Shown here: positions 19,301 through 54,377 of the stretch, piece after piece
Position numbering within the stretch: position 1 is the first letter of the stretch
Layout of the letters: each line of letters starts with the position of its first letter
Assembly (NCBI RefSeq): GCF_964194155.1
Contig: NC_135903.1
Location: 33,914,001 to 33,978,000 of the forward strand
DNA from: Cetorhinus maximus
Taxonomy: Eukaryota
Length of the DNA stretch: 64,000 bases
Reading direction: 5' to 3'
Notes under the pieces: model-generated
The model's input: only the letters and a program-made list of their open reading frames with translations
Told to the model about the DNA's origin: nothing
Database searches by the model: none
Position numbers and translations under genes: made by a program

Positions 19301-19770
19301 TGTCATTCTCTTCATTATACACAGACACAGGACAGGATCCAGATTGTCCATCAAACCCTGCGTTACATCAGCAAGATCTACAGCATGAACCTGGGTTCAG
19401 CCACATGGGCCCAGGACAAGGTGGAAAACCTCCGGCTTCTCCTGGATCGGCAGCTCGGTGAGCTGGAAGAATGTGTCAGGAAAGCAGGATCAGAGCACAA
19501 GATGAGGAGAAACTCTGCCATTCACAATTACTTTAGGAAACTGGAAAAGTTTCTCAAACAGGAGGTAGGTCAATTGATAAATGACAATGTGATTGCTGGC
19601 ATGTAGTTCATTTCACCACATTTAAATCTGCTCATTCTCTAATCGGTTTCCCTGAATAATTTTCTTTTCAGAAATTCAGTGACTGTGCCTGGGAAATAAT
19701 CCGCAATGAGACCAGAGCCCGTTTACAACAGCTCCTTTTCATCATAGCACAAATCAGCCGAAGAAACTGA
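16333..19770 (+). CDS. IFN1: Type I interferon, copy 2 (4 exons, 186 aa)
   Basis: Exons 16333-16464, 16641-16730, 19325-19564, 19672-19770 (KFSDCAWEIIRNETRARLQQLLFIIAQISRRN*). Open frame, GT-AG phase-0 introns, 4 Cys. Confidence 0.92.
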
Positions 19771-22700: not shown

Positions 22701-23134
22701 AATAAACGTGGAATATAACACTAGTGTCAGTAATACTGACCATGCAACTATCATGGATCTTTGTAAAACCCTTCTGATTCACTAATGCCTTTTAAGAAAG
22801 GAAACGTGAATTCTGCACCTGGACTGGATGACATGTCACTCTCAGCACATGGTCGAATCTTCACTGTCCTTTCAAATATTCAGTTCAAGGGACATTAGGG
22901 ATGGGCATCTAATGCTGGCTTTGCCAGTGATGCCCACATCCCATGAATGAATAAAGGAAAAAAGAATCCTTGATTCAAATACACCTGGGCCAGATCCCCT
23001 TTAAACGCACTAAAATTAATCCTCCCCCTTTTGAACATTTTTATCTCTATTTATAATTTGTTCTTTAACATAGTCTGTTCTAAAATTAAAGGTGAACATG
23101 TCCTCTCTAATGTCATTCCTTACATTATACACAG

Positions 23135-23596
23135 ACACAGGACAGGATCCAGATTGTCCATCAAACGCTGTGTCACATCAGCAAGATCTACAGCATGAAC
23201 CTGGGTTCAGCCACATGGGCCCAGGACAAGGTGGAAAAGTTCCGGCTTCTCCTGGACCGGCAGCTCGGTGAGCTGGAAGAATGTGTCAGGAAAGCAGGAT
23301 CAGAGCACAAGATGAGGAGAAACTCCGCCATTCACAATTAATTTAGGAAACTGGAAAAGTTTCTCAAACAGGAGGTAGGTCAATTGATAAATGACAATGT
23401 GAATGCTGGCATGTAGTTCATTTCACCACATTGAAAACTGCTCATTCTCTAATCGGTTTCCCTGAATAATTTTCTTTTTCAGAAATTCAGTGACTGTGCC
23501 TGGGAAATAATCCGCAATGAGACCAGAGCCCGTTTACAACAACTCCTTTTCATCATAGCACAAATCAGCAGAAGAAACTTAGAAAGACATGTTTAG
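23135..23596 (+). pseudogene. Headless IFN half-copy 3 (exons 3-4 only, premature stop)
   Basis: Exon 3 at 23135-23374 has TAC>TAA at 23339-23341. Exon 4 starts at 23483, and its stop is mutated TGA>TTA, reading on to TAG at 23596. No exon 1 or 2 upstream (junction at 22399-22404). Confidence 0.88.
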
Positions 23597-26500
23597 CTGA
23601 GACTGGGAACAAAGATTATCTATTTAAAAACTTTTAACATAAAGCTATCTATATATATATTTGTAACAAATTTTATATTTTATTGTACTGATGACAGAAC
23701 AATGAGTGACATGAGGAGATTATTTATTTTATTTATTTATTTATTTATTGATATTTGATGCTATGTCATTTTCCTCTGATATAATCCTAACCCTTTAATG
23801 GGTGGGATGTCTGCTCTGGAATTTACTGGTAGGCTTTCAAGATATGGCTTTTCAGACCTATAAACCCTGGGCCGCACTGACCTTTCCATTTCTCCTCTCC
23901 TAAGTAGCCAACTTTTCAATCTATTTCAGCCACTGTAATTTATTGACCTTTATTGTTGTGATGTCTTCATGTAATGAAATGTTACATGTAATTTAATGTG
24001 CAATGTGAATTTTTAATGATAATTTATTTATTGATATTTATTAAGTGTTGGCGAACAGATAAATTTTTTTGTAACAGGCAAATTTTATACACAATGAGAG
24101 CCTTTGCTACAAATAAATTGTTTTCAATATTACGCATTGACTGGAATGATGTTCATTTTCCAATTCTGTCGGTTGGCTTTCCATATTCAGTATAAATGCT
24201 GTGGATTCTCCCACCTGCTGCCTCATCCTGTCAGCCCTTCTCTGTTCTCCTCTTCTTTCTCCACAATCAGATTTTCCCTCACCCTTTGGAACTGTGAAAC
24301 TATTGTGAACCGAACTGCCCTGATCTATCATCTTTTACCCCTCTGCTTCTCAACGCCACATTCCAGCTCCAAAGGAGAGAAGACTGAGCGTGATGTTCAG
24401 GAGACAAGTGGAAAATAGAGGTATAAATTAGAAATGGACAGATGGAGAAATGGAATGTGTGGTCATAGAAGATGACTGGAGTGTCAGACTCTATGAATAT
24501 ATGGGGACATCAGACAATGGGTTTGAGAATTACATCAGGCAATTAGTAGGAAGGAGAATGAGTGCAGAGTGGGGATGAAAATCTTATATTTTGCATTGTT
24601 GTTTACACCTTCTGAAAATCTGTATGATAAATACTGTCTGCATTACAATAGAACAGAAGGAAAAAGAGAAGTAGGCCATTTGGCCACTCAAGCCTGCTCC
24701 ACCATTCAATAAGATTCTGACTGATTTGATTGTGGCCTTAAATCCACTCCCCTGCCTGCCACCTATAACCTTTGACTCCTTTGTTGATCAATCCCATCTA
24801 ACTCAGACTTGAATATATTCAATAACACAACCTCCACTGTTCTCTGAGGTGATGAAATTAAAAGATTAATGACACTCGGCGCAAACGAAACCCTCCTCAT
24901 CTCCGTCTCAGGTGCAGTTGCCACATATTGAAACTTTGGCCCCCAGTTACAGACTCCTCCAGAGAGGAAACACCTCAACATCTACCCGATCAAATCTCCT
25001 CACAATCTTAAATGACTCAATGATATCACCTCTCATTCTTCAAAACTCGAAGGAGTAAAGGCTCAACCTGGTTAAGATTGCTTCATAAACCAACTTCTCT
25101 TTCCAGGAATCAACCTGGTCAACCCTCTCTGAAGTGTCTCCAATGCAAGTTAATCGCTGCTTAAATAAGGAGACCAAAGCTGTACAAAGTACTCCAGGCC
25201 TAGTCTCACAAATGGCCTGTAGAGTTGAAGCAAAACTTCACTACTTCTTTTCTTCATCCTCTTTGCAATAAAGGAGAACATACCATTTACCTTTCCAATT
25301 AATTGCACTACTGTTTGCTAAATTCTCATTGCTCAGTTCCTAGGACACCAAGGTCTCTCTGCACTGAAAGATTCTGTGTTCTTTCTCCATTTAAACAACA
25401 TTCTTACTTTCTGCTGGGCACAGTAAAGGCTAACTTGTGCCCTACATTACATCAGTCACTATATATCTAAAGTATTTTATAAGCTGCTGAGTGCTTTGAG
25501 ACACCTGTGGTCAGGAAGGGCACAATGTGAATGCAAGCCTGTTTTGATAAAAAGATCATAGAGAAATCGGGGCCTACACACAAAACTGACCTCACTCCAG
25601 GGTGAATTTATCAGCAGTGCAGTTGTTTACAGACATTCCAAAGGGCCCCAAAAAATAAACTGGATGATTTGGGTTTGAGCACAGCAACAGACATGTGTTA
25701 AAAGGTTTGCATAGCAACTTTATTAATTTACAAAGACAATAACTAATGCACTCCAATTCCAAAAAAGTGGGGATGAACCAATCCAATTTCCATCACCATT
25801 AATTTCTACAAAACAGAAAACCGACCCCAAAAGTGGTATCAAGTTGTGGACGACAGGAAGTCTACAACGCTCTAACCAACTTCAATATTTACTGTCCACC
25901 ACCGACACATACTGGGATCAGTGTGTACCATGTACATGGTGAACTGCAGGATCTCAGCAAAGCCCCTTCAACACCGATTCCCAAACTGACGACTTCTACC
26001 ACCTAGAAGAACAAGGGTAGCAGACGCAAGGGACCAGCACCAAAGTTCGCTTCCCATTCAAGGGACAAGCATACTGACTTGGAACTATTTCCCATTTCTT
26101 CACTGTTACAGGCTAACACTCCTGGTAAACCCTTCCCAACACCCCTGTAAATTCACCTACACCACATGAACGGCAGCAGTTCAGGGGTTAAAGGGGGCGG
26201 TTCATCACCACCTTCTGTCGGGTAATTAGGGAGGAGCAACAAATTCTGGCCTTTCCAGAGACGCCCACGTTCCATCAAGGAAGAAATGAACCCAAATTAT
26301 TCATAAGTAGCTGTGAATGGGCCGCAGATTTTTGTAAGTTAAAAATGCACACGCTCCCGCAGGTCCTTCCTATTTTCTCTAATGTCACTCGCCAGTGCTT
26401 TTATTATTCTTCCTTCAGTTCCCTGACCCTCCTTCCGCCTCCGCCTTCAAAAATTACAATTCCCACTGTTTTATTCGCCAATAACAGCATTGTTGTAAAT

Positions 26501-27697
26501 TGTAGTTTCTTGCGTGTCTCCAGTTGGGGAATGTGGGATCCCGCTCCCACATCCACCCTGACGGTAGATTTTGGTCACACTTCCAGCTGAGAGGGATTTG
26601 GTGACATTTCCTATGTACCCGGGCATTTACCGAATACCCCAATGCCTTTCCCAACTGCCCCTCACCCCTCTCAGTCTGATCCACCCTCTTTACAAACTCT
26701 CCTCCCTTTCGGAAATGACAAAACACGTCACTTTCCTTCAGGCACTTTCGCTTTGGGCTGAAATGGACACCAGGTTAATTTCCAGAGAGAAAGTGACACG
26801 GACACTTTCCTGGGAGAGAGACAAGAAAAAAAGGATGAAAGAAAAGAGAGCGGGATCACTTTCGGACTCAGAATCGGAGCAAATCAAATATTCTTTCAAT
26901 CCGACTCTGAAAATGGCTCCAGAAAACAACCGAGAAATGAGAAACTTCTCCCAGTTAAAGAGCAGATTGTGGGACAGGTCAATCGGAGCGGAGTCTGTCC
27001 CCATGAAGCGGTGTCCGTCCCCATGAAGCGGTGTCCCTGGGCTGTGAGCCGAGCTCTCTGCAATGTCCAACCTGTGAAGTGTGAACAGGACAAGCGCCAG
27101 GTGAACACACCGCGGGGACACAGTGGATTTCAAAGGGAATCGCTCTTCATGGGGCCCAATGTCAGCACTAAAAGCCGCCGCACCGGATCACCGCTGTCGC
27201 TCTCTCTATAATCCGGATGATAAAATCCAGCCCCCGATACATGTTCACACTGCCCCCAATTCAGAGCCTCCCTCTACACCACCTTCGTGCCCCAGGTGAG
27301 CTGAAGCCACACAACACTGAGCTGGAACCGAGCGCTGCCTGTGATTTTCAACCGGGAATTTTCCACTCGCTGCTTTCGGAATCTCCAGCTTTTACATTCC
27401 TGACCTCAGAAAGGAAACCGGACAAACTATTGATCTCCCGCAGCTCTTCCAAAAATCCTCGAGCCCGTTTTCACTTTTCGAATGTAATGCCACACATTAA
27501 AGCCGACAGCATGGCAGCGCCAGTGAGAGCACCGAGCAGACTCCACACTCACACAGACACCGTTCGGCAGCACAGGCGCTCGCTCCCGGATCACAAGCGG
27601 CTCCGATTCGACTTTCCCAGTTTAAATCCGCCGCGGAATCAAGAAGCCGCCGGTTTCTCATCTTTCACATCGGTGTTTCACTCTGGGTCGCTTGATC

Positions 27698-30248
27698 ATG
27701 GCTTTGGCGAGTATCTGGAGATTTTGGATGATGTTGCTCTTCTTGTCCGGGACCCTCAGTCTGGGATGTGACAGGCTGCAGTTACAGCAAGTTCTCAACA
27801 CAGAGACTCTCAGCAAACTGAATGCAATGGTGAGTTGAACCTGCAGCCAGAGCAGGAGGTGAATCACATTGTGTCCGCTTGCTGTGAAATGTCACATCAG
27901 GGGAAATGTTTTGCGATTTGTCATTTTGTGCAATGAATAGCCTGTGATTCTCCAGTATTTGAGTTTTTGGGGCTGATTGTAACAGTGATTGTTTTCCCCT
28001 CTCAGGGCGGACCCTTTCCCCGACACTGTATAAGACAGAGACTCTCACTGAAAACCAAACCCTTGAACCTGGTGAAACTCTCGAAGGAATTAGAGGTGAG
28101 TGAACACTCGGTTCATTTGATTCACACAGGGCTTTTATACAAAGTAAGATCAACAACCGGATCGGAAACTTCCATATCAGGAATTTGGAACAGAGTGATT
28201 TGTACCCATTGTGAATGTAAGAGCAGTCTTACTTAGTGAATTTCACTCACTATCTCACTCATGAACTATATCACTCTCTCTAACCGCACTCACTACCCCC
28301 TTATCTCCAACTATATCCCTCCCTGATATTATGTCCCTCCCTCTAACTACCTGCTCTGCGAGCCATCCGACTGGATCTCCCATCTCCTTTTCCTGCAGGG
28401 CCTATAGATTATTCTGGGCAGACCACTGCCTGATGGGCCTGTTGTCAAAGATGTTTCTCTGCCTAAGCATTTCTATACGGGAAAGGTGGTGAGGCAATTC
28501 CAAAGGCTTCGAGTGTTCACGACAGCAAGGCCACTCCCATCCTTTGCAACAACGGGGACTGGTTGAAACTCAGCACTTGCAGTTTGCGTTCCAAGGGTCC
28601 ACGCACAGCTTGATGCAGCAAGACACCAATGTAGTTATCAGGATGAGGGCGATGTTGAGAGCATTTTGTCCTCTGATCATTGACTACGTGAAAACTTCTC
28701 AACATTTCTCAACCTAACACCATTTAATTTTCTCCCTGCCTCTAACCACCTCACTTCCTCTAATCATCTTATTCCCTGTAACAATTTGCCTCGCTCGAAA
28801 CATCTCACTCCTGAGCTGCACTGAATGACTTTGGGGCATGAATCACGCAGGCAGGATAGGCCAAAGGATCATAGAATGAAGGTTTATTTTATTCTCACGA
28901 ATGATCAAAAACAAAAATTTAATTACATGCTTATTAAAGGTTTTTAGCTTCCCTCTTACGTGACCTACTCATCAATTCTCATGCATTCTGTTCACTCCTC
29001 ATTTCTCTTGATAACTTTTCTCCATATTGGCTGCATTCAGCTTGGTTCCTCACTCTGCTAAGAGCCTAATGTTTCACATAAGGCTTCGTTTTCTGTTTTG
29101 TTTTAATCTCTACATCTTTTGGCGATGACGTCATTGACCTTTCCATGCCCTTCCTTTCTGCTTCATTGAAAGGAGTCCAGTCTGCAACCATAACATCTCC
29201 ACTTAAAAAGAGCCTCAATTGCTACTTTCCTCCTGAGAAAGCACTACTTAAGAGGAGATGGTGGCTTAGTGGTAGATTCACAGGTTTAATAATTCATGGC
29301 CTAGGCTAATGCTCTGGGCACCTGAGTTCATGCCCCATCACACAGATGGTGGAATTTTAATTCAATCAATAAACGTGGAATATAACACTAGTGTCAGTAT
29401 TACTGACCATGCAACTGTCATGGATCTTTGTAAAACCCTTCTGATTCACTAATGCCTTTTAAGAAAGAAAACGTGACTTCTGCACCTGGACTGGATGACA
29501 TGTCACTCTCAGCACATGGTCGAATCTTCACTGTCCTTTCAAATATTCAGTTCAAGGGACATTAGGGATGGACATGTAATGCTGGCTTTGCCAGTGATGC
29601 CCACATCCCATGAATGAATGAAGGAAAAAAGAATCCTTGATTCAAATACACCTGGGCCAGATCCCTTTTAATTGAAACTAAAATTAATCGTCCCCCTTTG
29701 CCCATTTTTATCTCCATTTATAATTTGTTCTTTAACATAGTCAGTTCTAAAATTAAAGGTGAACATGTCCTCTCTAATGTCATTCTCTACATTATACACA
29801 GACACAGGACAGGATCCAGATTGTCCATCAAACCCTGCATCAAGTCAGCAAGATCTACAGCATGAACCTGGGTTCAGCCACATGGGCCCAGGACAAGGTG
29901 GAAAACCTTCGGCTTCTCCTGGATCGGCAGCTCGGTGAGCTGGAAGAATGTGTCAGGAAACCAGGATCAGAGCACAAGATGAGGAGAAACTCTGCCATTC
30001 ACAATTACTTTAGGAAACTGGAAAAGTTTCTCAAACAGGAGGTAGGTCAATTGATAAATGACAATGTGAATGGTGGCATGTAGTTCATTTCACCCCATTT
30101 AAATCTGCTCATTCTCTAATCGGTTTCCCTGAATAATTTTCTTTTTCAGAAATTCAGTGACTGTGCCTGGGAAATAATTCGCAATGAGACCAGAGCCTGT
30201 TTACAGCAGCTCCTTTTCATCATAGCACAAATCAGCAGAAGAAACTGA
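27698..30248 (+). CDS. IFN1: Type I interferon, copy 4 (4 exons, 186 aa; short intron 2)
   Basis: Exons 27698-27829, 28006-28095, 29802-30041, 30150-30248 (KFSDCAWEIIRNETRACLQQ...). Open frame. Promoter A upstream with kB-like GGGAATTTTCC at 27354-27364. Confidence 0.92.
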
Positions 30249-33561: not shown

Positions 33562-34008
33562 ACACAGGACAGGATCCAGATTGTCCATCAAACCCTGCGT
33601 CACATCAGTAAGATCTACAGCATGAACCTGGGTTCAGCCACATGGGCCCAGGACAAGCTGGAAAACTTCTGGCTTCTCCTGGATTGGCAGCTCGGTGAGC
33701 TGGAAGAATGTGTCAGGAAAGCAGGATCAGAGCACAAGATGAGGAGAAACTCCGCCATTCACAATTACTTCAGGAAACTGGAAAAGTTTCTCAAACAGGA
33801 GGTAGGTCAATTGATAAATGACAATGTGATTGCTGGCATTTAGTTCATTTCACCACATTTAAATCTGCTCATTCTCTAATCGGTTACCCTGAATAACTTT
33901 CTTTTTCAGAAATTCAGTGACTGTGCCTGGGAAATAATCCGCACCGAGACCAGAGCCCGTTTACAACAGCTCCTTTTCATCATAGGACAAATCAGCAGAA
34001 GAAAGTGA
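33562..34008 (+). pseudogene. Headless IFN half-copy 5 (exons 3-4, frame intact)
   Basis: Exon 3 at 33562-33801 and exon 4 at 33910-34008 (KFSDCAWEIIRTETRARLQQLLFIIGQISRRK*) are both open with intact splice sites. No own exon 1 or 2 (junction at 32858-32863). Confidence 0.75.
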
Positions 34009-37000: not shown

Positions 37001-38119
37001 CACTTCCAGCTGAGAGGGATTTGGTGACATTTCCTATGTAGCCGGGAATTTACCGAATACCCCAAAGGCTTTCCCAACTGCCCCTCACCCCTCTCAGTCT
37101 GATCCACCCTCTTTACATACCCTCCTCCCTTTCGGAAATGACAAAACACGTCACTTTCCTTCAGGCACTTTCGCTTTGGGATGAAATTGACAGCAGGTTA
37201 ATTTGCAGAAAGAAAGTGACACGGACACTTTCCCGGGACAGAGACAAGAAAGAAATGATGAAAGAAAAGAGAGCGGGATCACTTTTGGACTCAGAATCGG
37301 AGCAGATCAAATATTCTTTCAATCCGACTCTGAAAATGGCTCCAGAAAACAACCGAGAAATGAGAAACTTCTCCCAGTTAAAGAGCAGATTGTGGGACAG
37401 GTCAATCGGAGCGGAGTCTGTCCCTATGAAGCGGTGTCCCTGGGTTGTGAGCCGAGCTGTCTGCAATGTCCAACCTGTGAAGTGTGAACAGGACAAGCGC
37501 CAGGTGAACACACCGCGGGGACACAGTGGATTTCAAAGGGAATCGCTCTCCATGGGGCCCAATGTCAGCACTAAAAGCCGCCGCACCGGATCACCGCTGT
37601 CGCTCTCTCTATAATCCGGATGATAAAATCCAGCCCCCGATACATGTTCACACTGCCCCCAATTCAGAGCCTCCCTCTACACCACCTTCGTGCCCCAGGT
37701 GAGCTGAAGCCACACAACACTGAGCTGGAACCGAGCGCTGCCTGTGATTTTCAACCGGGGATTTTCCACTCGCTGCTTCTGGAATCTCCAGCTTTTACAT
37801 TCCTGACCTCAGAAAGGAAACCGGACAAACTATTGATCTCCCGCAGCTCTTCCAAAAATCCTCGAGCCCGTTTTCACTTTTCGAATGTAATGCCACACAT
37901 TAAAGCCGACAGCATGGCAGCGCCAGTGAGAGCACCGAGCAGACTCCACACTCACACTCACACCGTTCGGCAGCACAGGCGCTCGCTCCCGGATCACAAG
38001 CGGCTCAGATTCCACTTTCCGAGTTTTAACCCGCTCGCAAGAACCGTTTTCGCCGCGGAACCACGAAGCCGCCGGTTTCTCATCTTTCACATCGGTGTTT
38101 CACTCTGGGTCGCTTGATC

Positions 38120-38251
38120 ATGGCTTTGGCGAGTATCTGGAGATTTTGGATGGTGTTGCTCTTCTTGTCCGGGACCCTCAGTCTGGGATGTGAGAGGCTG
38201 CAATTACAGCAAGTTCTCAACACAGAGACTCTCAGCAAACTGAATGCAATG
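38120..38251 (+). CDS. Upstream duplicate first exon 1A of IFN copy 6 (signal peptide, intact GT donor)
   Basis: MALASIWRFWMVLLFLSGTLSLGCERLQLQQVLNTETLSKLNAM|gtgagt, behind promoter A (kB site 37757-37767). Confidence 0.7.
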
Positions 38252-39879
38252 GTGAGTTGAACCCAAAACACCGAGTCGGTAATTATGTTGAGGGGAGAGA
38301 GGGAATCAGCCTCCAGGAGAGATTAAATCTGAATTTGGGTGAAGGAACAAATGGGATCCGAGAGGAAACTGGAAAGCAGACATTGAGGAGGAGGGCGCTC
38401 AGTGACGGACGGAGCGGAATGTGACCCTGAAGGGGGAGAGGGGGCAAATCAGAGACAGCCCATCAGTAACAACCATTCAGAATAATAGAGCCACTTTAAG
38501 GTCTCAAGGTGCCTCACGGGAATGTTATACAGCAACATTTGTTGTGGTGGGCACAGCAAGATTTCAAACTTTGCAGATGATACGAAGTTGGAAATGCTGT
38601 CGACAGTGACGGGGATGGTGTTGAACTTAAAAAGGACATAGACATGTTGGTGGATTGGGCAGACAAGCGGCAGATGAAGTTTAGTGCAGAGAAGTGTGAG
38701 GTGATAAGTTTTGGGAAGCAAGATAAAGTGAGACGGCACAAAATAAAGGGAGTGACTCTACAGGAGGTGCAGGAACAGAGGGACCTCGGTGTATATGCGG
38801 ATTGGTCAGTGAAGATGGCTGGGCATATTGAGAGAGCAGTTAATAAAGCATATACTAGCTTAGGCTTTATTAATCGTGGCATTGAGTAGAACAGAAAAGA
38901 GGTCATGTCGAACTTGTATAAGACACTAGTTAGGCATCATCTGGAATACTGTTCTGGGCACCAGACTTGAGGAAAGATGTGAGGGTATTGGTGAAAGTAC
39001 AGAAGAGATGCACAAGAATGATTCCCAGGATAACGAACTGTATCTACGCGGGAGGATTGGAGAGGTTGTCAATGTTTTCCTTGGAGAAAAGAATGTGGAG
39101 ATTAGGTTTAATTGAGGAACTCAAGATCCTGTGGGGTATGGACAGGGTAAATAATGAGAAACTGTCTCCACTAAAGCGAACATCAAGAAATATAGGGCAA
39201 AGGTTCAAAATAGTTGGCAAAATGAGTAAATGTGATGTGAGGAGCAATTTTTGAACCCAGGATGTGATTGGAGCAAACTTCACACAGTGCTTTCAATATT
39301 TGAAAATGAGGATGAGAATTTTAAAATGAAGGTATTTCTTATCCAGGAGACTGACGCTGTGTTTTGTTTGATCTCCCTGAGGAGATGCATGTCGAACAGA
39401 AATAGAAAGGGACCAAAAATAGATTCTTGGGGACACAGGGGCTAAACGTTGGGGCTGGGTGGGTGATGGTTGAGAAGAGATGCCATTCTGGGGGTTTATA
39501 GGCTGCATTTAGACAGTGGGAGCCAGGCAGTGTATCCCCAACCAGCAGGCCCATGGTGGAGAAAGTTGAATTCTGATGTTCATGTCGAACATGTCAAAGG
39601 TTGCGGACAGGGCGAGAAGGAGGAGAACAGTTTACGTATGTCACGGGCATGTTGAATGTAATTTATGAATTTATCTATCATCTTATGGAGATCTTGTGAT
39701 GCAATGGGTCGGACCTGCTTTCAGGCAGAGAACTCAAGAACAACTACAGCCTTATAACCTATCAATGTAACCAAATGCCCCTTCATTGCCCCCTTGATGT
39801 GAATCAGTTCAATTTGGAGGAAACATTATAATTTTCCCAAAATATTGTTAATACTTTTGATCAAAATTATAGAACTTTG

Positions 39880-40284
39880 AGCTGGAACCGAGCGCGTGTT
39901 GTGATTTTCTCTCGGGCACCTTCCAGTCACTGGTTCAGGAATCTCCAGATTTCAGATTCCTTACCTCAGACAGGGAGCAGACAAACTCGTCCGCTCCTGA
40001 AGTCCTTCCAAAACTCCCGCAACCAGATTTCACTTTTCGAGTGTAATAGCAACATCGCCAGTCCCCCCTCTTCACAGCGACGGCAACTCCCAGCACAATT
40101 CTCACACAAACATACACACACACACAGGACTGGACATTCAGGCGGTCGCTCCGGCTTCACAAGCGGCAGCATTTCCACGCCTGGTGTTTCATTCGCTTCA
40201 AAGGAAGTGTCTTTCGGAGTTGATCCCGGATCCAGTCAGTGTCTGATCCTCAGCTCGGGGTGTTTCACTCTGGGTCTCTTGATC
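39880..40284 (+). promoter_or_regulatory. IFN promoter B (copy 6), a diverged paralog of promoter A
   Basis: Shares gagctggaaccgagcgc, ggaatctccag and cctcaga..acaaact with A. Keeps TTTCACTTTTCG at 40028-40039, but the kB site becomes GGGCACCTTCC and GAAAGGAAAC becomes GACAGGGAGC. Confidence 0.6.
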
Positions 40285-43200
40285 ATGGCTTTGGCGAGTA
40301 TCTGGAGATTCTGGATGGTGTTGCTCTTCTTGTCCGGGACCCTCAGTCTGGGATGTGGCAGGCTGCACTTACAGCAAGTTCTCAACACAGAGACTCTCAG
40401 CAAACTGAATGCAATGGTGAGTTGAACCTGCAGCCAGAGCAGGAGGTGAATCACATTGTGTCCGCTTGCTGTGAAATGTCACATCAGGGGAAATGTTTTG
40501 CGATTTGTCATTTTGTGCAATGAATAGTCGGTGATTCTTCAGTATTTGAATTTATGGGGCTGATTGTAACAGTGATTGTTTTCCCCTCTCAGGGCGGACC
40601 CTTTCCCCGACACTGTATAAGACAGAGACTCTCACTGAAAACCAAACCCTTGAACCTGGTGAAACTCTCGAAGGAATTAGAGGTGAGTAAACACTCGGTT
40701 CATTTGATTCACACAGGGCTTTTATACAAAGTAAGATCAACAACCGGATCGGAAACTTCCACATCAGGAATTTGGAATAGAGTGATTTGTACCCATTGTG
40801 AATGTAGGAGCAGTCTCACTTATTGTATTTCACTCACTATCTCACTCATGAACTATATCACTCTCTCTAACCGCACTCACTACCCCTTATCTCCAACTCT
40901 CTCCCTCCCTGATATTATGTCCCTCCCGCTAACTACCTGCTCTGGGAACCATCCGACTGGATCTCCCATCTCCTTTTCCTGCAGGGCCTCTAGATTATTC
41001 CGTGCAGACCACTGCCTGATGGGCCTGTTGTCAAAGATGTTTCTCTGCCTAAACATTTCTACACGGGATAGGTGGTGAGGCAAGTTCCAAAGGCTTCGAG
41101 TGTTCCCGACAACAAGGCCACTCCCATGCTTTACAACACCGGGGACAGGTTTAAACTCAACACTTGCAGTTTGCGTTCAAAGGGTCCACGCACAGCTTGA
41201 TGCAGCCAGACACAAATGTAGTCATCAGGATGAGGGCGATGTTGAGTGCGTTTTGTCCTCTGATCATTGACTTCGTGAAAACTTCTCAACTTTTCTCAAC
41301 CTAACACCCTTTAATTTTCTCACCGCCTCTAACCACCTCACTTCCTCTAAACATCTTATTCCCTGTAACAATTTGCCTCCCTCGAAACATCTCACTCCTG
41401 AGCTGCACTGAATGACTTTGGGGCATGAATCACGCAGGCAGGATAGGCCATAGGATCATAGAATGATCCTGTGCTGAAGGAGTCCGATTGGGCAGAATGG
41501 TCTGTTTCTGTGCCACGTTTCCGATCAACTACCTGGTGGATAAATACGTTAGTAGGTACGCACTAACCAGCATTCATATATTCAAGAAAAATCACCTTTC
41601 CCAAACTTGATTGAGTTATGTGATAATGTAGCAGAGCGTCTTCATGAGATTAGTGCGCTTAATCTTCTGATGATGTCATCATACCTCTGCAGCACTTTGA
41701 ATGAACGATTCAAATTAATCCCGCTTTCATCCCCCATTACAATGCAAAATTTTTCTCTGACTATTTATCCAATTCTCTCTTGAAAGTTATTATTGAATCT
41801 GCTTTTGCTGTTTTGTAAATCAATCCGTACGCACACTTTTAAAAGGCTAATCATCAGAAGATCCAGCGCACAATCCTCATCAACACTCTCTGCTACCTTA
41901 TCACTTAACACAATCAAGCTTGGTAAAGATAATTTGATGGTAAAGATGTCTCCCCAGAGATCATTGTGTCTGAAGGTTTCCCACCACCCAAAATGGACTA
42001 ACTGGCCTGGAGTTGTTGGATTTATCCCTCTTCCATTTTTGAATGGGATGTAAGTATTTGAAATCTTCTGGTCCGCTGCCATCATGTCCCTCATATCTAA
42101 AGAGGACTGGAGGAATGCGGCCAGAAGTGTTATTAAAACCCTTGCTTTCCTCAGCAATCTCAGCTGTATTCCGTCCAGACCAGGTGACTTTCCCAACCTG
42201 AGTGCTGCCAATATTTTACGTACCTCCTCTTTATCTATTTTTATCCTGCCCAATTTCTCTACTCGCTCCCCCTTCACTGTGACTTTTGAAGCATCTGCTT
42301 GTGAAGTGAAGACAAATTCCAAGAATTGGTTTAGAAAATCCGCCATGTCCTTTGTATCCCACAAGAAGATTTATTTTTTGCTCACTAATCATCACAAACA
42401 AACATTTATTTACATGCTTATTAAAGGTTTTTAGCTTCCCTCTTACGTGATCTGCTCATCAATTTTCATGCATTCTGTTTATTCCTCATTTCTTTTGATA
42501 ACCTTTCTCCATATTGGCTGCATTCAGCTTGGTTCCTCACTCTGCTAAGAGCCTAATGTTTCACATAAGGCTTCGTTTTCTGTTTTGTTTTAATCTCTAC
42601 ATCTTTTGGCGATGACGTCATTGACCTTTCAATGCCCTTCCTTTCTGCTTCATTGAAAGGAGTCCAGTCTGCAACCATAACATCTCCACTTAAAAAGAGC
42701 CTCAATTGCTACTTTCCTCCCGAGGATGCACTATTTAAGAGGAGATGGTGGCTTAGTGGTAGATTCACAGGTTTAATAATTCATGGCCTAGGCTAATGCT
42801 CTGGGCACCTGAGTTCATGCCCCATCACACAGATGGTGGAATTTTAATTCAATCAATAAACGTGGAATATAACACTAGTGTCAGTAATACTGACCATGCA
42901 ACTATCATGGATCTTTGTAAAACCCTTCTGATTCACTAATGCCTTTTAAGAAAGGAAACGTGAATTCTGCACCTGGATTGGATGACATGTCACTCTCAGC
43001 ACATGGTCGAATCTTCACTGTCCTTTCAAATATTCAGTTCAAGGGACATTAGGGATGGGCATCTAATGCTGGCTTTGCCAGTGTTGCCCACATCCCATGA
43101 ATGAATAAAGGAAAAAAGAATCCTTGATTCAAATACACCTGGGCCAGATCCCTTTTAAACGCACTAAAATTAATCCTCCCCTTTTTGACCGATTTTAGCT

Positions 43201-43735
43201 CTATTTGAATTTTGTTCTTTAACATAGTCTGTACTAAAACTAAAGGTGAACATGTCCTCTCTAATGTCATTCTCTACATTATACACAGACACAGGACAGG
43301 ATCCAGATTGTCCATCAAACCCTGCGTCACATCAGCAAGATCTACAGCATGAACCTGGGTTCAGCCACATGGGCCCAGGACAAGGTGGAAAACCTCCGGC
43401 TTCTCCTGGATCGGCAGCTCGCTGAGCTGGAAGAATGTGTCAGGAAAGCAGGATCAGAGCACAAGATGAGGAGAAACTCTGCCATTCACAATTACTTTAG
43501 GAAACTGGAAAAGTTTCTCAAACAGGAGGTAGGTCAATTGATAAATGACAATGTGATTGCTGGCATTTAGTTCATTTCACCACATTTAAATCTGCTCATT
43601 CTCTAATCGGTTTCCCTGAATAACTTTCTTTTTCAGAAATTCAGTGACTGTGCCTGGGAAATAATCCGCAATGAGACCAGAGCCCGTTTACAACAACTCC
43701 TTTTCATCATAGCACAAATCAGCAGAAGAAACTGA
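40285..43735 (+). CDS. IFN1: Type I interferon, copy 6 (exon 1B form, 4 exons, 186 aa)
   Basis: Exons 40285-40416 (..LGCGRLHLQQ..), 40593-40682, 43289-43528, 43637-43735. Open frame; CAWE motif. Confidence 0.92.
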
Positions 43736-46700: not shown

Positions 46701-47612
46701 GAGAGAAAGTGACACGGACACTTTCCCGGGAGAGAGACAAGAAAGAAAGGATGAAAGAAAAGAGAGCGGGATCACTTTCGGACTCAGAATCGGAGCAGAT
46801 CAAATATTCTTTCAATCCGACTCTGAAAATGGCTCCAGAAAACAACCGAGAAATGAGAAACTTCTCCCAGTTAAAGAGCAGATTGTGGGACAGGTCACTC
46901 GGAGCGGAGTCTGTCTCCATGAAGCGGTGTCCCTGGGCTGTGAGCAGAGCTGTCTGCAATGTCCAACCTGTGAAGTGTGAACAGGACAAGCGCCAGGTGA
47001 ACACACCGCGGGGACACATTGGATTTCAAAGGGAATCGCTCTTCATGGGGCCCAATGTCAGCACTAAAAGTCGCCGCACCGGATCACCGCTGTCGCTCTC
47101 TCTATAATCCGGATGATAAAATCCAGCCCCCGATACATGTTCACACTGCCCCCAATTCAGAGCCTCCCTCTACACCACCTTCGTGCCCCAGGTGAGCTGA
47201 AGCCACACAACACTGAGCTGGAACCGAGCGCTGCCTGTGATTTTCAACCGGGGATTTTCCACTCGCTGCTTCCGGAATCTCCAGCTTTTACATTCCGGAC
47301 CTCAGAAAGGAAACCGGACAAACTATTGATCTCCCGCAGCTCTTCCAAAAATCCTCGAGCCCGTTTTCACTTTTCGAATGTAATTCCACACGTTAAAGCC
47401 GACAGCATGGCAGCGCCAGTGAGAGCACCGAGCAGACTCCACACTCACACTCACACCGTTCGGCAGCACAGGCGCTCGCTCCCGGATCACAAGCGGCTCC
47501 GATTCGACTTTCCCAGTTTAAATCCGCTCGCAAGAACCGTTTTCGCCGCGGAACCACGAAGCCGCCGGTTTCTCATCTTTCACATCGGTGTTTCACTCTG
47601 GGTCGCTTGATC

Positions 47613-47744
47613 ATGGCTTTGGCGAGTATCTGGAGATTTTGGATGATGTTGCTCTTCTTGTCCGGGACCCTCAGTCTGGGATGTGACAGGCTGCAGCTAC
47701 AGCAAGTTCTCAACACAGAGACTCTCAGCAAACTGAATGCAATG
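47613..47744 (+). CDS. Upstream duplicate first exon 1A of IFN copy 7
   Basis: MALASIWRFWMMLLFLSGTLSLGCDRLQLQQVLNTETLSKLNAM|gtgagt, behind promoter A (kB site 47251-47260). Confidence 0.7.
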
Positions 47745-48999
47745 GTGAGTTGAACCCAAAACACCGAGTCGGTAATTATGTTGAGGGGAGAGAGGGAATC
47801 AGCCTCCAGGAGAGATTAAATCTGAGTCTGGGCGAAGGTACAAATGGGATCTGAGAGGAAATTGGAAAGCAGACATTGAGGAGGAGGGCACTCAGTGACG
47901 GAAGAAGCGGAATGTGACCCTGAAAGGGGAGAGGGGGCAAATCAGAGGCAGCCCATCAGTGACAACCATTCAGAATGATAGAGCGACTTTAAGGTCTCAA
48001 GGTGCCTCACGGGAATGTTACACAGCAACATTTGTTGTGGTGGTCACAGCAAGATTTCAAACTTTTCAGATGATATGAAGTTGGAAATGTTGCCGACTGT
48101 GACGGGGATGGTGTTGAACTTAAAAAGGACATAGACATGTTGGTGGACTGGGCAGACAAGTGGCAGATGTAGTTCAATGCAGAGAACTGTGAGGTGATCC
48201 GTTTTGGCAGGAAAGGTAAGGAGGGACGGTATAAATTAAAGGGAGTGACTGTACAGTAGGTACTGGAACAGAGGAACTTCGGTGTATATACGGATTGGTC
48301 AATGAAAATGGCATGGCATGTTGAGAGAGCTGTTAAAAAGCATATAGTAGCTTAGGCTTTATTAATAAGGGCATTGAGTGCTAGAGAAAAGAGGTCATGT
48401 CGAACTTGTATGAGACTCTAGTTAGGCGTCATTTGGAGTACTGTGTCCAGTTCTTCGCACCATTCTTGAGGAAGGATGTGAAGGCATTGGTGAGAGTACA
48501 GTGGAGATTCACAAGAATGATTCCCTGGATAATAAACTGTAGCTATGCGGGTGGATTGGAGAGGTTGGCACTGTTTTCCTTGGAGAAGAGATGGTGGAGA
48601 TGACACTTGATTGAGGGACTCAAGTCGCTGGGGGGTATGGACAGGGTAAGTAATGAGAAACTGTTTCCACTAAAGCGAACATCAATAGTTAGAGGGCACA
48701 GGTTCAAAATAGTTGGCAAAAGGAGTAACTGTGATGTGAGGAAAAGTATTTGAACCCAGAAGGTGGTTGGAGTCTGGGGCAAACTTCCTGAAAGTGTGTT
48801 GGGGGCAGGTTCGATCGAGGCATTGAACAGGGAATTGGATTTCTTCCTGAAAAGAGAGAGAATGTGCAAGGTTACAAGGATAAGGCAGGGGAGCGCAACT
48901 ATGTTGAATGCTCTTTCAGAGAAGCAGTGCAGACTCGATGGGCCAAATGGCCTTCTTCTGCAATGTAAAGACATTGTGACACTGTGGACAATTGATGCC

Positions 49000-49320
49000 A
49001 AGTCACAGGAGAAGATATTAAAGCAGGTGACTAAAAGCTTGGTCAAAGAAGTTGATTTTAAGGAGCGTTTTAATGGCGAAATAGGGGGAAAGAGTCGGAG
49101 AGGTTTAGGTCAGAAATTACTGAGGTTGAGAGTTCGGCAGGCGAAGGGACCGCCCCCAATGGTGGAATAGTTAAAGTGGGGATTGTGGAGACGGTAGAAT
49201 TAGAGGAGAGCTGGTATCTCAGAAGGTTGAAAGGCTGGAGGTGATTACAGAGATAGGGAGTGTTTAGGGCCTGGAGTGATTTGAAAATGAGGATGAGGAT
49301 TTTAAAGTCAAGCATTTCTT
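49000..49320 (-). mobile_element. L2-type LINE 3' fragment (mostly deleted in copies 1 and 6)
   Basis: ORF 49070-49315 FKILILIFKSLQALNTPYLCNHLQPFN..R..LSSNS resembles the L2 ORF2 C-terminus (FKILxLxFKxLxGLAPxYL). Confidence 0.55.
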
Positions 49321-50258
49321 ATCCAGGAGACTGACGCTGTGTTTTGTTTGATCTCCCCGAGGGGCGGCGTGTTGATGAGAAATAGAAAGGGACCAAAGAT
49401 AGGTCCTTGGGCACACAGAGGCTAAAGGTTGGGGCTGGGTGGGTGATGGTGGAGAAGAGATGCTATTCTGGGGGTTTACAGTCTGCATTTAGACAGTGGG
49501 AGCCAGGCAGTGTATCCCCAACCAGCAGGCCCATGGTGGAGAAAGTTCAATTCTGATGGTCTCGTCGACCATGTCAAAGATTGCGGACAGGGCGAGAAGG
49601 AGGAGAATAGTTTACATATGTCACGGGCATATTGAATGTAATTTATTAATTTGACTATCACCTTATGGAGATCTTGTGATGCAATGGGTCGAACCTGCTT
49701 TCAGGCAGAGAACTCAAGAACACGAACAGCCTTATAATCTAACAATCTAACCAAAGGCCCCTTTATTGCCCCCTTAATGCGAATCCGTTCAATTTGGAGG
49801 AAACATTATATTTTTCCCAAAGCGTTATGAATTATATTGATCCAAATTGTTGGAACGTTGACCAGGAACCGAGCGCGGGTTGTGATTTCCTCTCGGCATC
49901 TTCCAGTCACTGGTTCAGGAATCTCCAGATTTCAGATTCCTTACCTCAGACAGGGAGCAGACAAACTCGTCCTCTCCTGAAATTCTTCCAAATCTCCCGC
50001 AACCAGATTTCGCTTTTCGAATGTAATAGCAACATCGCCAGTGCCCCCTCTTCACAACGACAGCTCCTCCCAGCACAATTCGCACACACACACACACACA
50101 GGACTGGATGTTCAGGCGGTCGCTCCGGCTTCACAAGCAGCAGCTTTCCCACTCCCGGTGTTTCATTCGCTTCAGAAGAACCGTTGTTCGAAGTTGAACC
50201 CAGATCTGGTCAGTGCATGATCCTCAGGTCGGAGCGATTCACTCTGGGTCGCTTGATC

Positions 50259-53200
50259 ATGGCTTTGGCGAGTATCTGGAGATTTTGGATGGTGTTGCTC
50301 TCCTTGTCCGGGACCCTCATTCTGGGATGTGACAGGCTGCAGTTACAGCAAGTTCTCAACACAGAGACTCTCAGAAAACTGAATGCAATGGTGAGTTGAA
50401 CCTGCAGCCAGAGCAGGAGGTGAATCACATTGTGTCCGCTTGCTGTGAAATGTCACATCAGGGGAAATGTTTTGCGATTTGTCATTTTGTGCAATGAATT
50501 GTCTGTGATTCTCCAGTATTTGAGTTTTTGGGGCTGATTGTAACAGTGATTGTTTTCCCCTCTCAGGGCGGACCCTTTCCCCGACACTGTATAAGACAGA
50601 GACTCTCACTGAAAACCAAACCCTTGAACCTGGTGAAACTCTCGAAGGAATTAGAGGTGAGTGAACACTCAGTTTATTTGATTCACACAGGGCTTTTATA
50701 CAAAGTAAGATCAACAACCGGATCGGAAACTTCCACATCAGGAATTTGGAATAGAGTGATTTGTACCCATTGTGAATGTAGGTGCAGTCTCACTTATTGT
50801 ATTTCACTCACTATCTCACTCATGAACTATATCACTCTCTCTAACCGCACTCACTACCCCCTTAACTCCAACTATCTCCCTCCCTGATATTATGTCCCTC
50901 CCTCGAACTACCTGTTCTGGGAACCACCGACTGAATCTCACATCTCCTTTTCCTGCAGGGCCTCTAGATTATTCCGTGCAGACCACTGCCTGCTGGGCCT
51001 GTTGTCAAAGGTGTTTCTCTGCTAAGCATTTCTACAGGGGATAGGTGGTGAGTCAGGTTCCAAAGGCTTCGAGTGTTCGCGACAACAAGGCCAGTCCCAT
51101 CCTTTGCAACACCGGGGACAGGTTGAAAGTCAGCACTTGCAGTTTGCGTTCCAAGGGTCCACGCACAGCTTGATGCAGCCGGACACAAATGTAGTCATCA
51201 GGATGAGGGCGATGTTGAGTGCGTTTTGTCCTCTGATCATTGACTTCGTGAAAACTTCTCAACTTTTCTCAACCTAACACCCTATAATTATCTTACTGCC
51301 TCTAACCACCTCACTTCCTCTAATCATCTTATTCCCTTTAACAATTTGCCTCCTCGAAACATCTCCCTCCTGGGCTGCACTGATTGAATTTGGGGCATTA
51401 ATCACGCAGGCAGGGTGATTCATAGAATCATAGAATGATCTTGTGCTGAAGGAGACCGATTGGGCCGAATGGCCTGTTTCTGTGCCACATTTCCTATCAA
51501 CTGCCTCGTGGAAAAAATTAGGTTAGTAGGTACGCACTAACCAACATTCATATATTGAAGAAAAATCACCTTTCCCAAACTTGATTGAGTTATGTGATAA
51601 TGTAGCCGAGAGTGTTGATACGAATAGTGCGCTGAAACTTCTGATGATGTCATCACACCTCTGCAGCTCTTTGAATGAATTATTCAAATTATTCCCGCTC
51701 TCATCCCCCATTACAATGCAAACTTTTCCTCCGACTATTTATCCAATTCTCTCTTGAAAGTTATTATTGAATCTGCTTTTGCTATTTTGTCAATAAATCC
51801 ATACGCACACTTTTAAAAGACTAATCATCACAAGATCCAGCGCACAATCCTCATCAACACTCTCGGCTACATTATCACATAACTCAATCAAGTTTGGGAA
51901 AGATGATTTTTCTTGAATATACGAATGCTGGCTAGTTCGTACCTACTAACATATTTTTTTCTAAGTGGCAGTTGATAGGAAATGTGGCACAGAAACAGTC
52001 CATTCGTCCCAATCGGTCCATGCCAGTGATTATGCTCCACTCGAGTCTCCTCACATTTACTCATCTAAATCTAGCATTGTAACCATTTATTTCCAGCACA
52101 GGAGGTTGAGGACACATTTGATAGATGTGCACAAGGTTATGACAGGTTTGAATAAACAAGACAGGAAAAAAATCTTCCTGTTACCTCGTGGTGCAGGGTC
52201 TAGGAGACACAGTTAGTGTCTCGCCCCTCTGCCACTTGTATTCAACTAGCAGCAGGCAGGGGAGTCACCTAGTGGGAATTCCGAAGAGCAATCCCTGTCA
52301 GATTTGCTTCCTGGTTGCCATTAAGGGGTTGAGGGGATGGTGCCCTTCGTTCAACAGCAGTCAGTGCCTGGTCAAGTAACCCAGCACCAGGAAGATGTCG
52401 GACTGTGGTGAAAGTCACAGGGATTTCCACCTACACCACCACAGCCCTCACCACCGCCCTCCACCCCCCACCCCCCACCCCAACCCACCCACCCTGGTAT
52501 CTTGCTCCTGGTAACCACTTAAGTGCCTAACTGGCACTGAATGCGGCTGGCCTACCATAAAGAAGGTGAAGCAAGGCTCTCCCTGCCTCTCCAGAGATTA
52601 CTGTGTCTGAAAGTTTCCCACATCCCAAAATAGATTATCTGGCCTGTAGTTACTGGGTTTATCCCTCATCCATTTTTGAATGGGATGTAATTACTAGAAA
52701 TCTTCTGCTCTCCTGCCATCATGTCCCTCATGTCTAAAGAGGACTGGAAGAATGAGGCCAGAAGCTCTGCTACCTCAATCCTTACTTCGCTCAGCAATCT
52801 CAGCTGTATTCCATCCAGACCAGGTGACTTTCCTACCCTGAGCGCTGCCAATATATTAAGTACCTCCTCTTCATCTCTTTTTATCCTACCCAATTTCTCT
52901 ACTCGCTCCCCCTTCACTGTGACTTTTGAAGCATCTGCTTGTGAAGTGAAGACAAATTCCAAGAATTGGTTTAGTTCCTCAGCCATGGCCTTTGAATCCC
53001 ACAAGAAGATTTCTATTTTGCTCACTAATCATCACAAACAAACATTTATTTACATGCTTATTAAAGGTTATTAGCTTCCCTCTTACGTGACCTGCTCATC
53101 AATTCTCATGCATTCTGTTTACTCCTCATTTCTTTTGGTAATTTTTCTCCATGTTGTCTGTATTCAGCTTGGATCCTCACTGTACTAAGAGCCTAATATT

Positions 53201-54377
53201 TAACATAAGGCTTCTTTTTCTGTTTTGTTTTAATCTCTACTTCTTTTGGCTATCGGGTCATTAACCTTTGGATGTCCTTCCCTTCTGCTGCATTGAAAGG
53301 AGTCCAGTGTGCAACCATAAGATCCCCACTTATAAAGAGCCTCAATTGCTCCTTTTCTCTTGACTTAGTAGCCTTATGGAGGAGATGGTGGCTTAGTGGT
53401 ACTTTCAGTTGGTTTAATAAATCATAGCTCAGGATAATGCTCTGGGGACATGAGTTCAAACCCCACCATAGAGGTGGTGGGATTTTAATTCAATCAATAA
53501 ATGTGGAATACAACACGAGCCTCAGTAATGTTGACCGTGTAATGATCATTGATCATTGTAAAAGCCCTTCTGATTCACTGATGCCCTTTAAGAAAGGAAA
53601 CCTGCTATCTATTCCTGGCCTGACTGACATGTCGCACTTGGCACATGTTCGACTTTCCACTGTCCTTTGAAATATTAAGTTCAAGGGAAATTAGGGATTG
53701 GCATCAAATGCTGGCTTTGCCAATGATGCCCACATCCCATGAAAGAATAAAGGAAAAAAGAATCTTTGATTCAAAAACACCTGAGCCAGATCCCCTTTAA
53801 ACTCACTAAAATTAATCTTCTCTCTTTTAAACATTTTTAGCTTGATTTGTCTTTTGTTCTTTAACATAATCTGTTCTAAAACGAAAGGAGAACATGTCCT
53901 CTCTAATGTCATTCTCTACATTTTACACAGGCACAGGACAGGATCCAGATTGTCCATCAAACCCTGCGTCGTATCAGCAAGATCTACAGCATGAACCTGG
54001 GTTCAGTTGCATGGGCCCGGGACGAGGTGGAGAATTTCCGGATTCTCCTGGATCGGCAGCTCAGCGAGCTGGAAGAATGTGTTAGGAAACCAGGATCAGA
54101 GCACAAGATGAGGAGAAACTTCGCCATTCACAATTACTTTAGGAAACTGGAAAAGTTTCTCAAGCAGGAGGTGGGTCAATTGATAATTGACAGTGTGATT
54201 GCTGGCATGTAGTTCATTTCACCACATTGAAAACTGTTCATTCTCTAATCAATTTCCCTGAATGATTTTCTTTTTCAGAAATTCAGTGACTGTGCCTGGG
54301 AAATAATCCGCACTGAGACCAGAGCCCGTTTACAACAGCTCCTTTTCATCATAGCACAAATCAGCAGAAGAAACTGA
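50259..54377 (+). CDS. IFN1: Type I interferon, copy 7 (exon 1B form; most diverged copy, 186 aa)
   Basis: Exons 50259-50390, 50567-50656, 53931-54170 (AQDRIQIVHQTLRRISK..VAWARDEVENFRIL..), 54279-54377 (KFSDCAWEIIRTETRARLQQLLFIIAQISRRN*). Open frame. Confidence 0.92.
51453..52020. repeat. Intronic inverted repeat (~200-bp arms in copy 7; ~80-bp arms in copies 1, 2 and 6)
   Basis: 51453-51650 (..ctgtgccacatttcctatcaactg..cccaaacttgattgagttatgtgataatgtagccgagagtgttgat..) is the reverse complement of 51822-52020 (..atcaacactctcggctacattatcacataactcaatcaagtttggg..cagttgataggaaatgtggcacag). Confidence 0.85.

What the first reader, a model, noticed from the sequence alone, without database searches (positions are those of the whole stretch)
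37620..40682. Interferon genes with two complete signal-peptide first exons behind two different promoters (A: NF-kB plus IRF; B: IRF only)
Seen: copies 6 and 7, and originally copy 1, each carry two near-identical 132-nt exons 1 (38120/40285, 47613/50259, 6685/8837). Both have an ATG, a full signal peptide and a phase-0 GT donor, upstream of a single exon 2. The promoters are old paralogs. A has GGGATTTTCC, GAAAGGAAAC and GTTTTCACTTTTCG; B keeps only the TTTCRCTTTTCG IRF motif. Known: mammalian IFN-beta uses kB plus IRF sites (early wave) and IFN-alpha uses IRF-only promoters (IRF7-driven late wave). Teleost alternative first exons typically give signal-less intracellular IFN, not a second secreted form. 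Inference: a single gene could make almost the same secreted IFN from an early and a late promoter, with small N-terminal differences (CERLQL vs CGRLHL in copy 6).
Basis: partly seen in the sequence, partly recalled or inferred. Interest (0 to 1): 0.85.

Follow-up and report, generated by a model that had tools for sequence, protein, structure and literature searches.

The report
Shark interferon with duplicated first exon
Half the genes of a shark interferon array carry two near-identical signal-peptide first exons; RNA from related sharks joins an upstream-type first exon to exon 2 from a start far upstream, and the downstream copy is likely a leftover that gene conversion keeps intact rather than a late-wave promoter.

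Summary
The window opens a tandem array of 22 four-exon type I interferon genes; 11 carry exon 1A, a spacer, 'promoter B', exon 1B and one exon 2. Spliced contigs of 5 of 5 RNA-type runs from relatives join the A region and exon 1 to exon 2 at GT..AG (38251/40593), and a relative's DNA holds the same double layout, so 1A is likely no orphan. The interpretation needs changing. Exon 1 is homogenised between old paralogs in six shark species, so 1A/1B identity needs no selection. B varies among copies like spacer DNA, never stands alone, and is deleted in 7 genes and broken in 2 whose frames stay open. B also keeps a kB-like site, so 'IRF only' is unsafe. Best reading: A is the working 5' end, B a drifting leftover (0.5); B inducible (0.35). 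Side finding: the leader matches an upstream exon that skate gene models splice to exon 2, giving signal-less interferon as in teleosts.

The parts
37166..37177 (+). Distal IRF-element-like site CACTTTCGCTTT, likely part of the promoter of the transcript seen
   Evidence: Pattern found in 21 of 22 A units, kept as a block in the diverged upstream of copy 1, about 30-40 nt before the RNA contig start
37204..38119 (+). Long transcribed leader of exon 1A (916 nt, 13 ATGs)
   Evidence: One contig of run X3 covers 37204-38250 and joins exon 2; ATG count; matched by gene models of a catshark, an epaulette shark and skates
37138..37614 (+). Upstream ORF 1 (158 codons; length varies among copies); holds a candidate donor CAG|GTGAAC at 37503/37504 in phase with exon 2
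   Evidence: donor with an open frame back to an ATG in 22 of 22 units; no such junction among the joints shown
37620..38117 (+). Upstream ORF 2 (165 codons; inner ATG in strong context at 37914), stops 2 nt before the interferon ATG; overlaps it out of frame in the 13 units with a 19-nt shorter leader
   Evidence: no Pfam match
37721..38119 (+).
   Evidence: Motifs; covered by spliced contigs in 5 of 5 RNA-type runs
38120..38251 (+). Exon 1A, 44 codons with signal-peptide-like N terminus and GTGAGT donor
   Evidence: intact in 11 of 11 double units; joint 38251/40593
38264..39877 (+). Spacer, unrelated to intron 1; holds an old dispersed repeat at about 38541-39290
   Evidence: 51% identity to intron 1, equal to shuffles; repeat hits; 5' part unique to the 11 double units
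39878..40284 (+). 'Promoter B': old paralog of 37721-38119 only, without the distal site and leader; kB-like 39938-39946, IRF site 40028-40038
40285..40416 (+). Exon 1B, near-identical to 1A
   Evidence: intact in 9 of 11 double units
40593..40682 (+). Exon 2 (B type)
   Evidence: spliced joints on both sides
43289..43528 (+). Exon 3 (240 nt, fused third and fourth ancestral exons)
   Evidence: Pfam Interferon PF00143, E 1e-12
43637..43735 (+). Exon 4 coding part with stop; total 186 aa
6304..12223 (+). Double unit whose exon 1B is cut after 64 nt by an inverted copy of 7599-7759; exon 2 keeps a pyrimidine-rich AG and the frame through 1A is open
47213..54377 (+). Second intact double unit (1A 47613, 1B 50259), the most diverged B class
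15933..30248 (+). Two single-exon-1 genes (16333, 27698): A region, exon 1, then the B intron, as expected from a crossover between 1A and 1B

Best explanation
The double unit is likely a hybrid gene, in which the 5' module of one old interferon paralog (distal IRF site, long leader, exon 1A) stands before a second paralog and would drive it by splicing 1A to exon 2 across B, while B and exon 1B are likely that second gene's own leftover start. Shown: the anatomy; the spliced A-region-to-exon-2 contigs in relatives; two old paralog types (B and C) across sharks. Inferred: gene conversion keeps 1A and 1B alike, donor included; B drifts and adds little or no transcript; crossovers between 1A and 1B remove B and give the single-exon-1 genes. 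Speculative: the many upstream ATGs hold back translation of the long transcript, and the kB/IRF sites at -360 to -240 give a shorter inducible transcript from 1A.
For: Joint 38251/40593 with GT..AG in X1-X4 and X3, X5: 5 of 5 RNA-type runs laid, 4 studies, 2 organism labels; the contigs carry A-type sequence and join across B. DNA run X12 of organism A covers A (45-64), spacer (40-49), B (44-53) and intron-exon 2 (45) alike, which roughly leaves no room for a single-exon-1 gene there (depth is not a copy number). All 22 genes begin with A, none with B alone. B is deleted in 7 and 1B broken in 2, all with open 186-codon frames. Variable sites among 5 unit classes: B 58 of 373, spacer 82 of 567 (p 0.64), A 14 of 354. 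A:B identity 68% equals the B:C paralog identity of intron 1 and exon 2, 71% each. Within 6 of 6 species pairs exon 1 of B and C types is 89-98% identical and exon 2 only 57-70%. B has no counterpart of the distal site or leader.
Against: No RNA of the window's own species was laid, and the state of the sampled animals is unknown; an inducible B would be silent at rest. B keeps its IRF site in 8 of 11, a kB-like site in 11 of 11, CpG o/e 0.65-0.79 against 0.37-0.52 in the spacer, and no upstream ATG within 420 nt in 7 of 11 (shuffle P about 0.05 for three classes, 0.19 and 0.58 for two). An epaulette shark gene model implies two exon 1 copies behind an A leader; so long a survival of an easily deleted segment would suggest use. 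A has 22 copies to convert with and B 11, which inflates the A:B contrast. 37204 may be a graph break, not a start site.
Confidence: 0.5

Rival explanations
1. Both starts work. A gives a resting long-leader transcript, and B is an inducible start whose ATG-free leader would be translated well, so one gene makes near-identical secreted interferon by two routes. The reader's early (kB plus IRF) versus late (IRF only) split is one form of this, about a third of it.
For: B keeps the IRF site in 8 of 11 and raised CpG; no upstream ATG in 7 of 11; 1B intact in 9 of 11; layout present in organism A DNA and implied in an epaulette shark model; teleost genes use a resting upstream and an inducible downstream start (PMC5127012, passages).
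Against: B varies like spacer; lost GGGATTTTCC and GAAAGGAAA in 11 of 11; dispensable in 9 genes; keeps a kB-like site, which blurs 'IRF only'; 1B has 8 amino-acid-changing and 3 silent variants, 1A 6 and 3, no sign of stronger constraint.
Confidence: 0.35
2. Exon 1A is an orphan stub of a truncated C-type gene. In double units B drives the gene, transcripts from A end in the spacer, and the spliced A-type RNA comes from single-exon-1 genes.
For: Partial duplicates are common here (7 extra exon 3-4 tails); conversion alone can keep 1A intact; the spacer has AATAAA at 38742 and 38842; no read-level marker ties the contig to a double unit.
Against: X12 depths fit about three double units plus one C gene and no single-exon-1 gene (rough); the transcript's Met12 occurs in 3 of 11 1A and 0 of 9 intact 1B copies, though also in one single-exon-1 gene; two units with 1B broken keep open frames.
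Confidence: 0.12
3. The duplication is an assembly artefact of a repetitive array.
For: The array has 69-kb higher-order repeats at 99.4% and 98.9% identity.
Against: A and B are 68% identical; five diverged unit classes; two DNA runs, one of another species at 92-97%, cover spacer and B.
Confidence: 0.02

Closest known systems
Teleost group I (IFNa / IFNphi1) two-start genes and intracellular interferon
   Same: An upstream start gives a long transcript; salmonid IFNa was first described with a long 5' UTR full of start codons and stops, and upstream exons give signal-less forms (PMC5127012, PMC3828176, passages). The shark A leader has the same character and matches an upstream exon of signal-less skate models.
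   Different: Here the coding first exon itself, signal peptide included, is duplicated with its proximal upstream region; the gene has four cysteines, while the 2013 paper reported such splicing only in the two-cysteine 'a' subgroup.
Variable-first-exon clusters (UGT1, GCNT2, protocadherins)
   Same: Tandemly duplicated first exons spliced to shared downstream exons (PMC1885805, listing and abstract start).
   Different: Only two copies, homogenised rather than diversified, so any gain would be regulatory; use of the second copy is not shown.
Cartilaginous-fish type I interferons
   Same: Four exons, three introns, tandem cluster (PMC5332411, passages); PF00143; 76-97% identity over exon 3 to galeomorph shark proteins of the top hits.
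   Different: A much larger array (22 genes plus a second cluster) than the three genes reported for elephant shark; double first exon not mentioned in the passages read.
Mammalian IFN-beta versus IFN-alpha promoters
   Same: kB-type and IRF-type motifs in A; fewer in B (PMC5127012, passage on control by IRFs).
   Different: Mammals use separate intronless genes; here the motifs lie inside the leader of the transcript seen, and B keeps a kB-like site.

Membership tests
Cartilaginous-fish type I interferon | Interferon alpha/beta domain | tested here: met
   PF00143, E 1.1e-12 on exon 3
Cartilaginous-fish type I interferon | Four exons, three phase-0 introns | tested here: met
   132/90/240/99 nt, 186 aa in 22 of 22 genes; introns 1 and 2 spliced in contigs
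Cartilaginous-fish type I interferon | N-terminal signal peptide and four cysteines | tested here: met
   By inspection and identity to annotated shark proteins; no signal-peptide predictor was run
Cartilaginous-fish type I interferon | Linkage to growth hormone and CD79B | tested here: inconclusive
   One weak PF00103 match, on another contig; CD79B not sought
Cartilaginous-fish type I interferon | Antiviral signalling through IFNAR | not testable with these tools
   Needs protein assay
Teleost two-start / intracellular interferon genes | Upstream start giving a long transcript | tested here: met
   Contig from 37204 to exon 2 in a relative; the exact start is only a weak hint
Teleost two-start / intracellular interferon genes | Upstream exon spliced to give a signal-less protein | tested here: inconclusive
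   In-frame donor at 37503 in 22 of 22; skate N terminus matches the leader, 0 of 300 shuffles; manta N terminus does not match; no such joint among those shown
Teleost two-start / intracellular interferon genes | Alternative first exon lacks the signal peptide | tested here: not met
   For 1A versus 1B both carry it
Teleost two-start / intracellular interferon genes | Proximal start induced by virus | not testable with these tools
   No run of known stimulation
Variable-first-exon clusters | Tandem first exons with paralogous upstream regions before shared exons | tested here: met
Variable-first-exon clusters | Each first exon is transcribed and spliced to the shared exons | tested here: inconclusive
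   A type seen in relatives; B type not among the joints shown
Variable-first-exon clusters | First exons diversify in protein sequence | tested here: not met
   97% identical, homogenised
IFN-beta-like versus IFN-alpha-like promoter pair | kB plus IRF sites in one, IRF only in the other | tested here: inconclusive
   Canonical kB only in A, but a kB-like 9-mer in 11 of 11 B and IRF site lost in 3 of 11
IFN-beta-like versus IFN-alpha-like promoter pair | Motifs lie upstream of the transcription start | tested here: not met
   For the transcript seen they are inside it; a second, inducible start is not excluded
IFN-beta-like versus IFN-alpha-like promoter pair | Early versus late kinetics, IRF3 versus IRF7 dependence | not testable with these tools
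   Needs stimulation time course

The most novel reading that the evidence does not exclude
Sharks keep an old multi-entry interferon gene: a distal IRF-driven start makes a resting mRNA locked by upstream ORFs and, through a donor in the leader, a signal-less intracellular form; two duplicated proximal modules (A and B) make secreted interferon on different signals. The layout predates the split of mackerel and carpet sharks, and the teleost intracellular-interferon arrangement goes back to the first jawed vertebrates.
Probability: 0.2. Interest if true: 0.78.

Novelty: new variant of a known kind. Interest (0 to 1): 0.5.

Why it matters
No interferon gene with two full signal-peptide first exons turned up in nine literature searches. 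If A alone works, the locus shows promoter capture between paralogs and exon-limited gene conversion shaping an immune gene array. The side results may matter more: a spliced shark interferon transcript with a long, ATG-rich leader, and homology of that leader to the upstream exon of signal-less skate models, make it testable whether the resting long transcript and intracellular interferon of teleosts are ancestral to jawed vertebrates.

Tried and rejected
No RNA holder listed as RNA on record; the runs laid are guessed RNA, and their GT..AG joints are the reason I treat them as RNA. No RNA run of organism C, which looks like the window's own species, was laid. Idea that the 19-nt shorter leader fuses the upstream ORF to interferon: rejected, it overlaps out of frame. 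Idea that the two long upstream ORFs are conserved proteins: two of 158 codons or more arose in 0 of 2000 shuffles, but lengths vary among copies, organisms A and B have a 1-nt deletion at 37816, and there is no Pfam match or homolog. Spacer as a diverged intron 1 or a tandem copy of A's upstream DNA: rejected. Manta upstream exon as a homolog of the leader: no match (P 0.89). Growth hormone linkage: inconclusive. Exon trees have too few columns to resolve most forks; I rely on pairwise identities. Earlier findings of this scan: none near. Supplements of the papers were not read.
Full report
What is there. The window is the start of a tandem array of type I interferon genes (Pfam PF00143; closest named proteins are basking shark and white shark interferons). 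With 400 kb of neighbouring assembly (coordinates beyond 64000 continue the window's count) the plus-strand array has 22 genes, each of four exons and an open 186-codon frame; one has a changed last acceptor. All 22 begin with the same 'A' region and exon 1. Eleven are double units (1A, spacer, B region, 1B, short intron, exon 2); in 2 of these 1B is cut by an inverted insertion. Seven are single-exon-1 genes with A joined to the B intron. Four have A before a diverged intron and exon 2 (C type). No gene starts with B alone. Much of the array is a 69-kb repeat at 99% identity, so the 11 double units reduce to about five classes.

Why 1A and 1B are alike. The regions upstream of 1A and 1B are 68% identical; B- and C-type intron 1 and exon 2 are each 71% identical; the tract from -26 to +12 around exon 1 is 97% identical. 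B- and C-type proteins both occur in catsharks, smooth-hound, horn shark and carpet sharks. In 6 of 6 within-species pairs exon 1 is 89-98% identical and exon 2 57-70%; between species exon 1 is 70-91% identical. So exon 1 is homogenised within shark genomes in general, which I read as gene conversion. An intact 1A or 1B, donor included, is then expected without selection. The equal depths of divergence suggest that A is the old 5' end of the C paralog and B that of the B paralog, and that the double unit is a C-type 5' end placed before a B gene (inference).

RNA. I laid 5 of the 7 small-share RNA-type runs and 2 of the 5 DNA-size runs listed. All five RNA-type runs (organisms A and B, 4 studies, about 96-97% identical to the window) hold a contig that runs through the A region and exon 1 and joins exon 2 at GT..AG, 38251/40593; three also join exon 2 to exon 3. 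The exon 2 side is B type. DNA run X12 of organism A covers A, both spacer ends, B and exon 2 at similar depth (40-64; one copy-specific piece at 15), so the double layout exists there, and the depths roughly fit three double units and one C gene, the set annotated for white shark. The tool warns that depth is no copy number, so this is a soft argument that the splice skips B in a double unit. The transcript carries Met12, found in 3 of 11 1A and 0 of 9 intact 1B copies here. The tables of joints were cut (9 and 28 rows not shown).

Where the transcript starts. In X3 one contig at depth 65 begins at 37204, against 2-7 upstream; in X4, another study, the contig begins about 37206 by its offset; the DNA run goes on. 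This is a weak hint of a start and could be a graph break, but the transcript reaches at least that far. An IRF-element-like site lies at 37166-37177 in 21 of 22 units and survives in the otherwise diverged upstream of copy 1. B has no counterpart of this site or of the first half of the leader. The proximal motifs may still drive a shorter inducible transcript, as in teleosts; that was not testable.

Is B alive? Against: variable sites among five unit classes are 58 of 373 in B and 82 of 567 in the spacer (p 0.64), but 14 of 354 in A; the canonical kB site and GAAAGGAAA are gone in 11 of 11, the IRF site in 3 of 11; B is deleted in 7 genes and 1B broken in 2 without loss of the frame. For: raised CpG, no upstream ATG in 7 of 11 (P about 0.05 at best), a kB-like GGAATCTCC in 11 of 11, and age. 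An epaulette shark gene model (P0075) has the A leader, then the start of exon 1 read in a shifted frame, then a second exon 1 and a B-type exon 2; 11 of 11 codons fit this reading, against 0 of 20000 random peptides reaching 10. It implies two exon 1 copies there, though a skipped whole gene would look the same. Lack of B cover in runs of unknown condition is not evidence.

A side finding. Skate and ray models, one from an unnamed Logan contig (P0117), and X1/X2 isoform pairs in two mantas, put a different, signal-less first exon on exon 2. The skate N terminus aligns to the A leader, ending near 37460 (score 65, shuffles 40.5 +/- 4.3, 0 of 300); the manta one does not. A catshark model does the same in another frame. 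Here a donor CAG|GTGAAC at 37503/37504 is in phase with exon 2 and has an open frame back to an ATG in 22 of 22 units. No such joint was shown in organisms A and B, and organism A has a weaker base before the GT. Such a protein would lack the first mature residues and first cysteine, so its activity is uncertain.

Comparison with print. Passages read: PMC5332411 (four-exon genes in cartilaginous fish), PMC5127012 (two starts and non-secreted forms in fish; IRF control), PMC3828176 (long ATG-rich 5' UTR, intracellular interferon), PMC6640115 (concerted evolution of type I genes; no mention of exons or promoters), PMC13176653 (one passage). Listing and abstract start only: PMC1885805. Searches found no report of a duplicated signal-peptide first exon, of shark interferon promoters, or of intracellular interferon in skates; the library lacks most subscription journals. 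Motif consensus patterns, the repeat class of the spacer insert and the roles of upstream ORFs are recalled, not from calls.

Verdict. 1A is likely the working start (about 0.8), B likely a leftover (0.5) or inducible (0.35); the early/late split about 0.12. Interest 0.5.

Noticed in passing
window 23135-23581 and 33562-34008; five more beyond the window: Seven extra exon 3-4 tails follow complete genes, with their acceptor; 3 carry a stop, 1 a broken donor, 3 are open and could serve as alternative last exons.
   Followed up: partly
G000:C26 about 34,170,000-34,296,000 (L050-L062): A second, mostly opposite-strand cluster of about 18 interferon genes of a third type, with exon 1 about 73% identical but exon 3 about 92%, and a GAAAGTGAAAG site some 260 nt before the ATG; no double first exon seen.
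   Followed up: partly
window 37503-37504: Candidate donor in the leader, in phase with exon 2 in 22 of 22 units; the leader matches the signal-less upstream exon of skate models.
   Followed up: partly
window 8901-9061 versus 7599-7759: Inverted 161-nt copy replaces half of exon 1B and most of the intron and supplies a new pyrimidine tract; the two arms could pair in the pre-mRNA and loop out B. Repeated unchanged at 77977-78137.
   Followed up: partly
window 5300-5927: The first gene of the array has a diverged upstream region with a perfect ISRE-like CACTTTCACTTTCG; identity to the other units starts abruptly at the place matching 37343.
   Followed up: partly
window 37914-38117: Upstream ORF with a strong start context ends 2 nt before the interferon ATG in 9 units and overlaps it out of frame in 13; its frame stays open in organism A by the variants listed.
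   Followed up: partly
window 5927-75000 and beyond: 69-kb higher-order repeat at 99.4% and 98.9% identity: a recent expansion of the array.
   Followed up: yes
window 39942 (run X12): Organism A has a 4-nt insertion that turns B's kB-like site into a full kB consensus on the minus strand.
   Followed up: no
proteins P0094, P0112, P0128: Ray and skate models with exons 2-3 repeated in tandem, suggesting partial duplications like those in this array.
   Followed up: no
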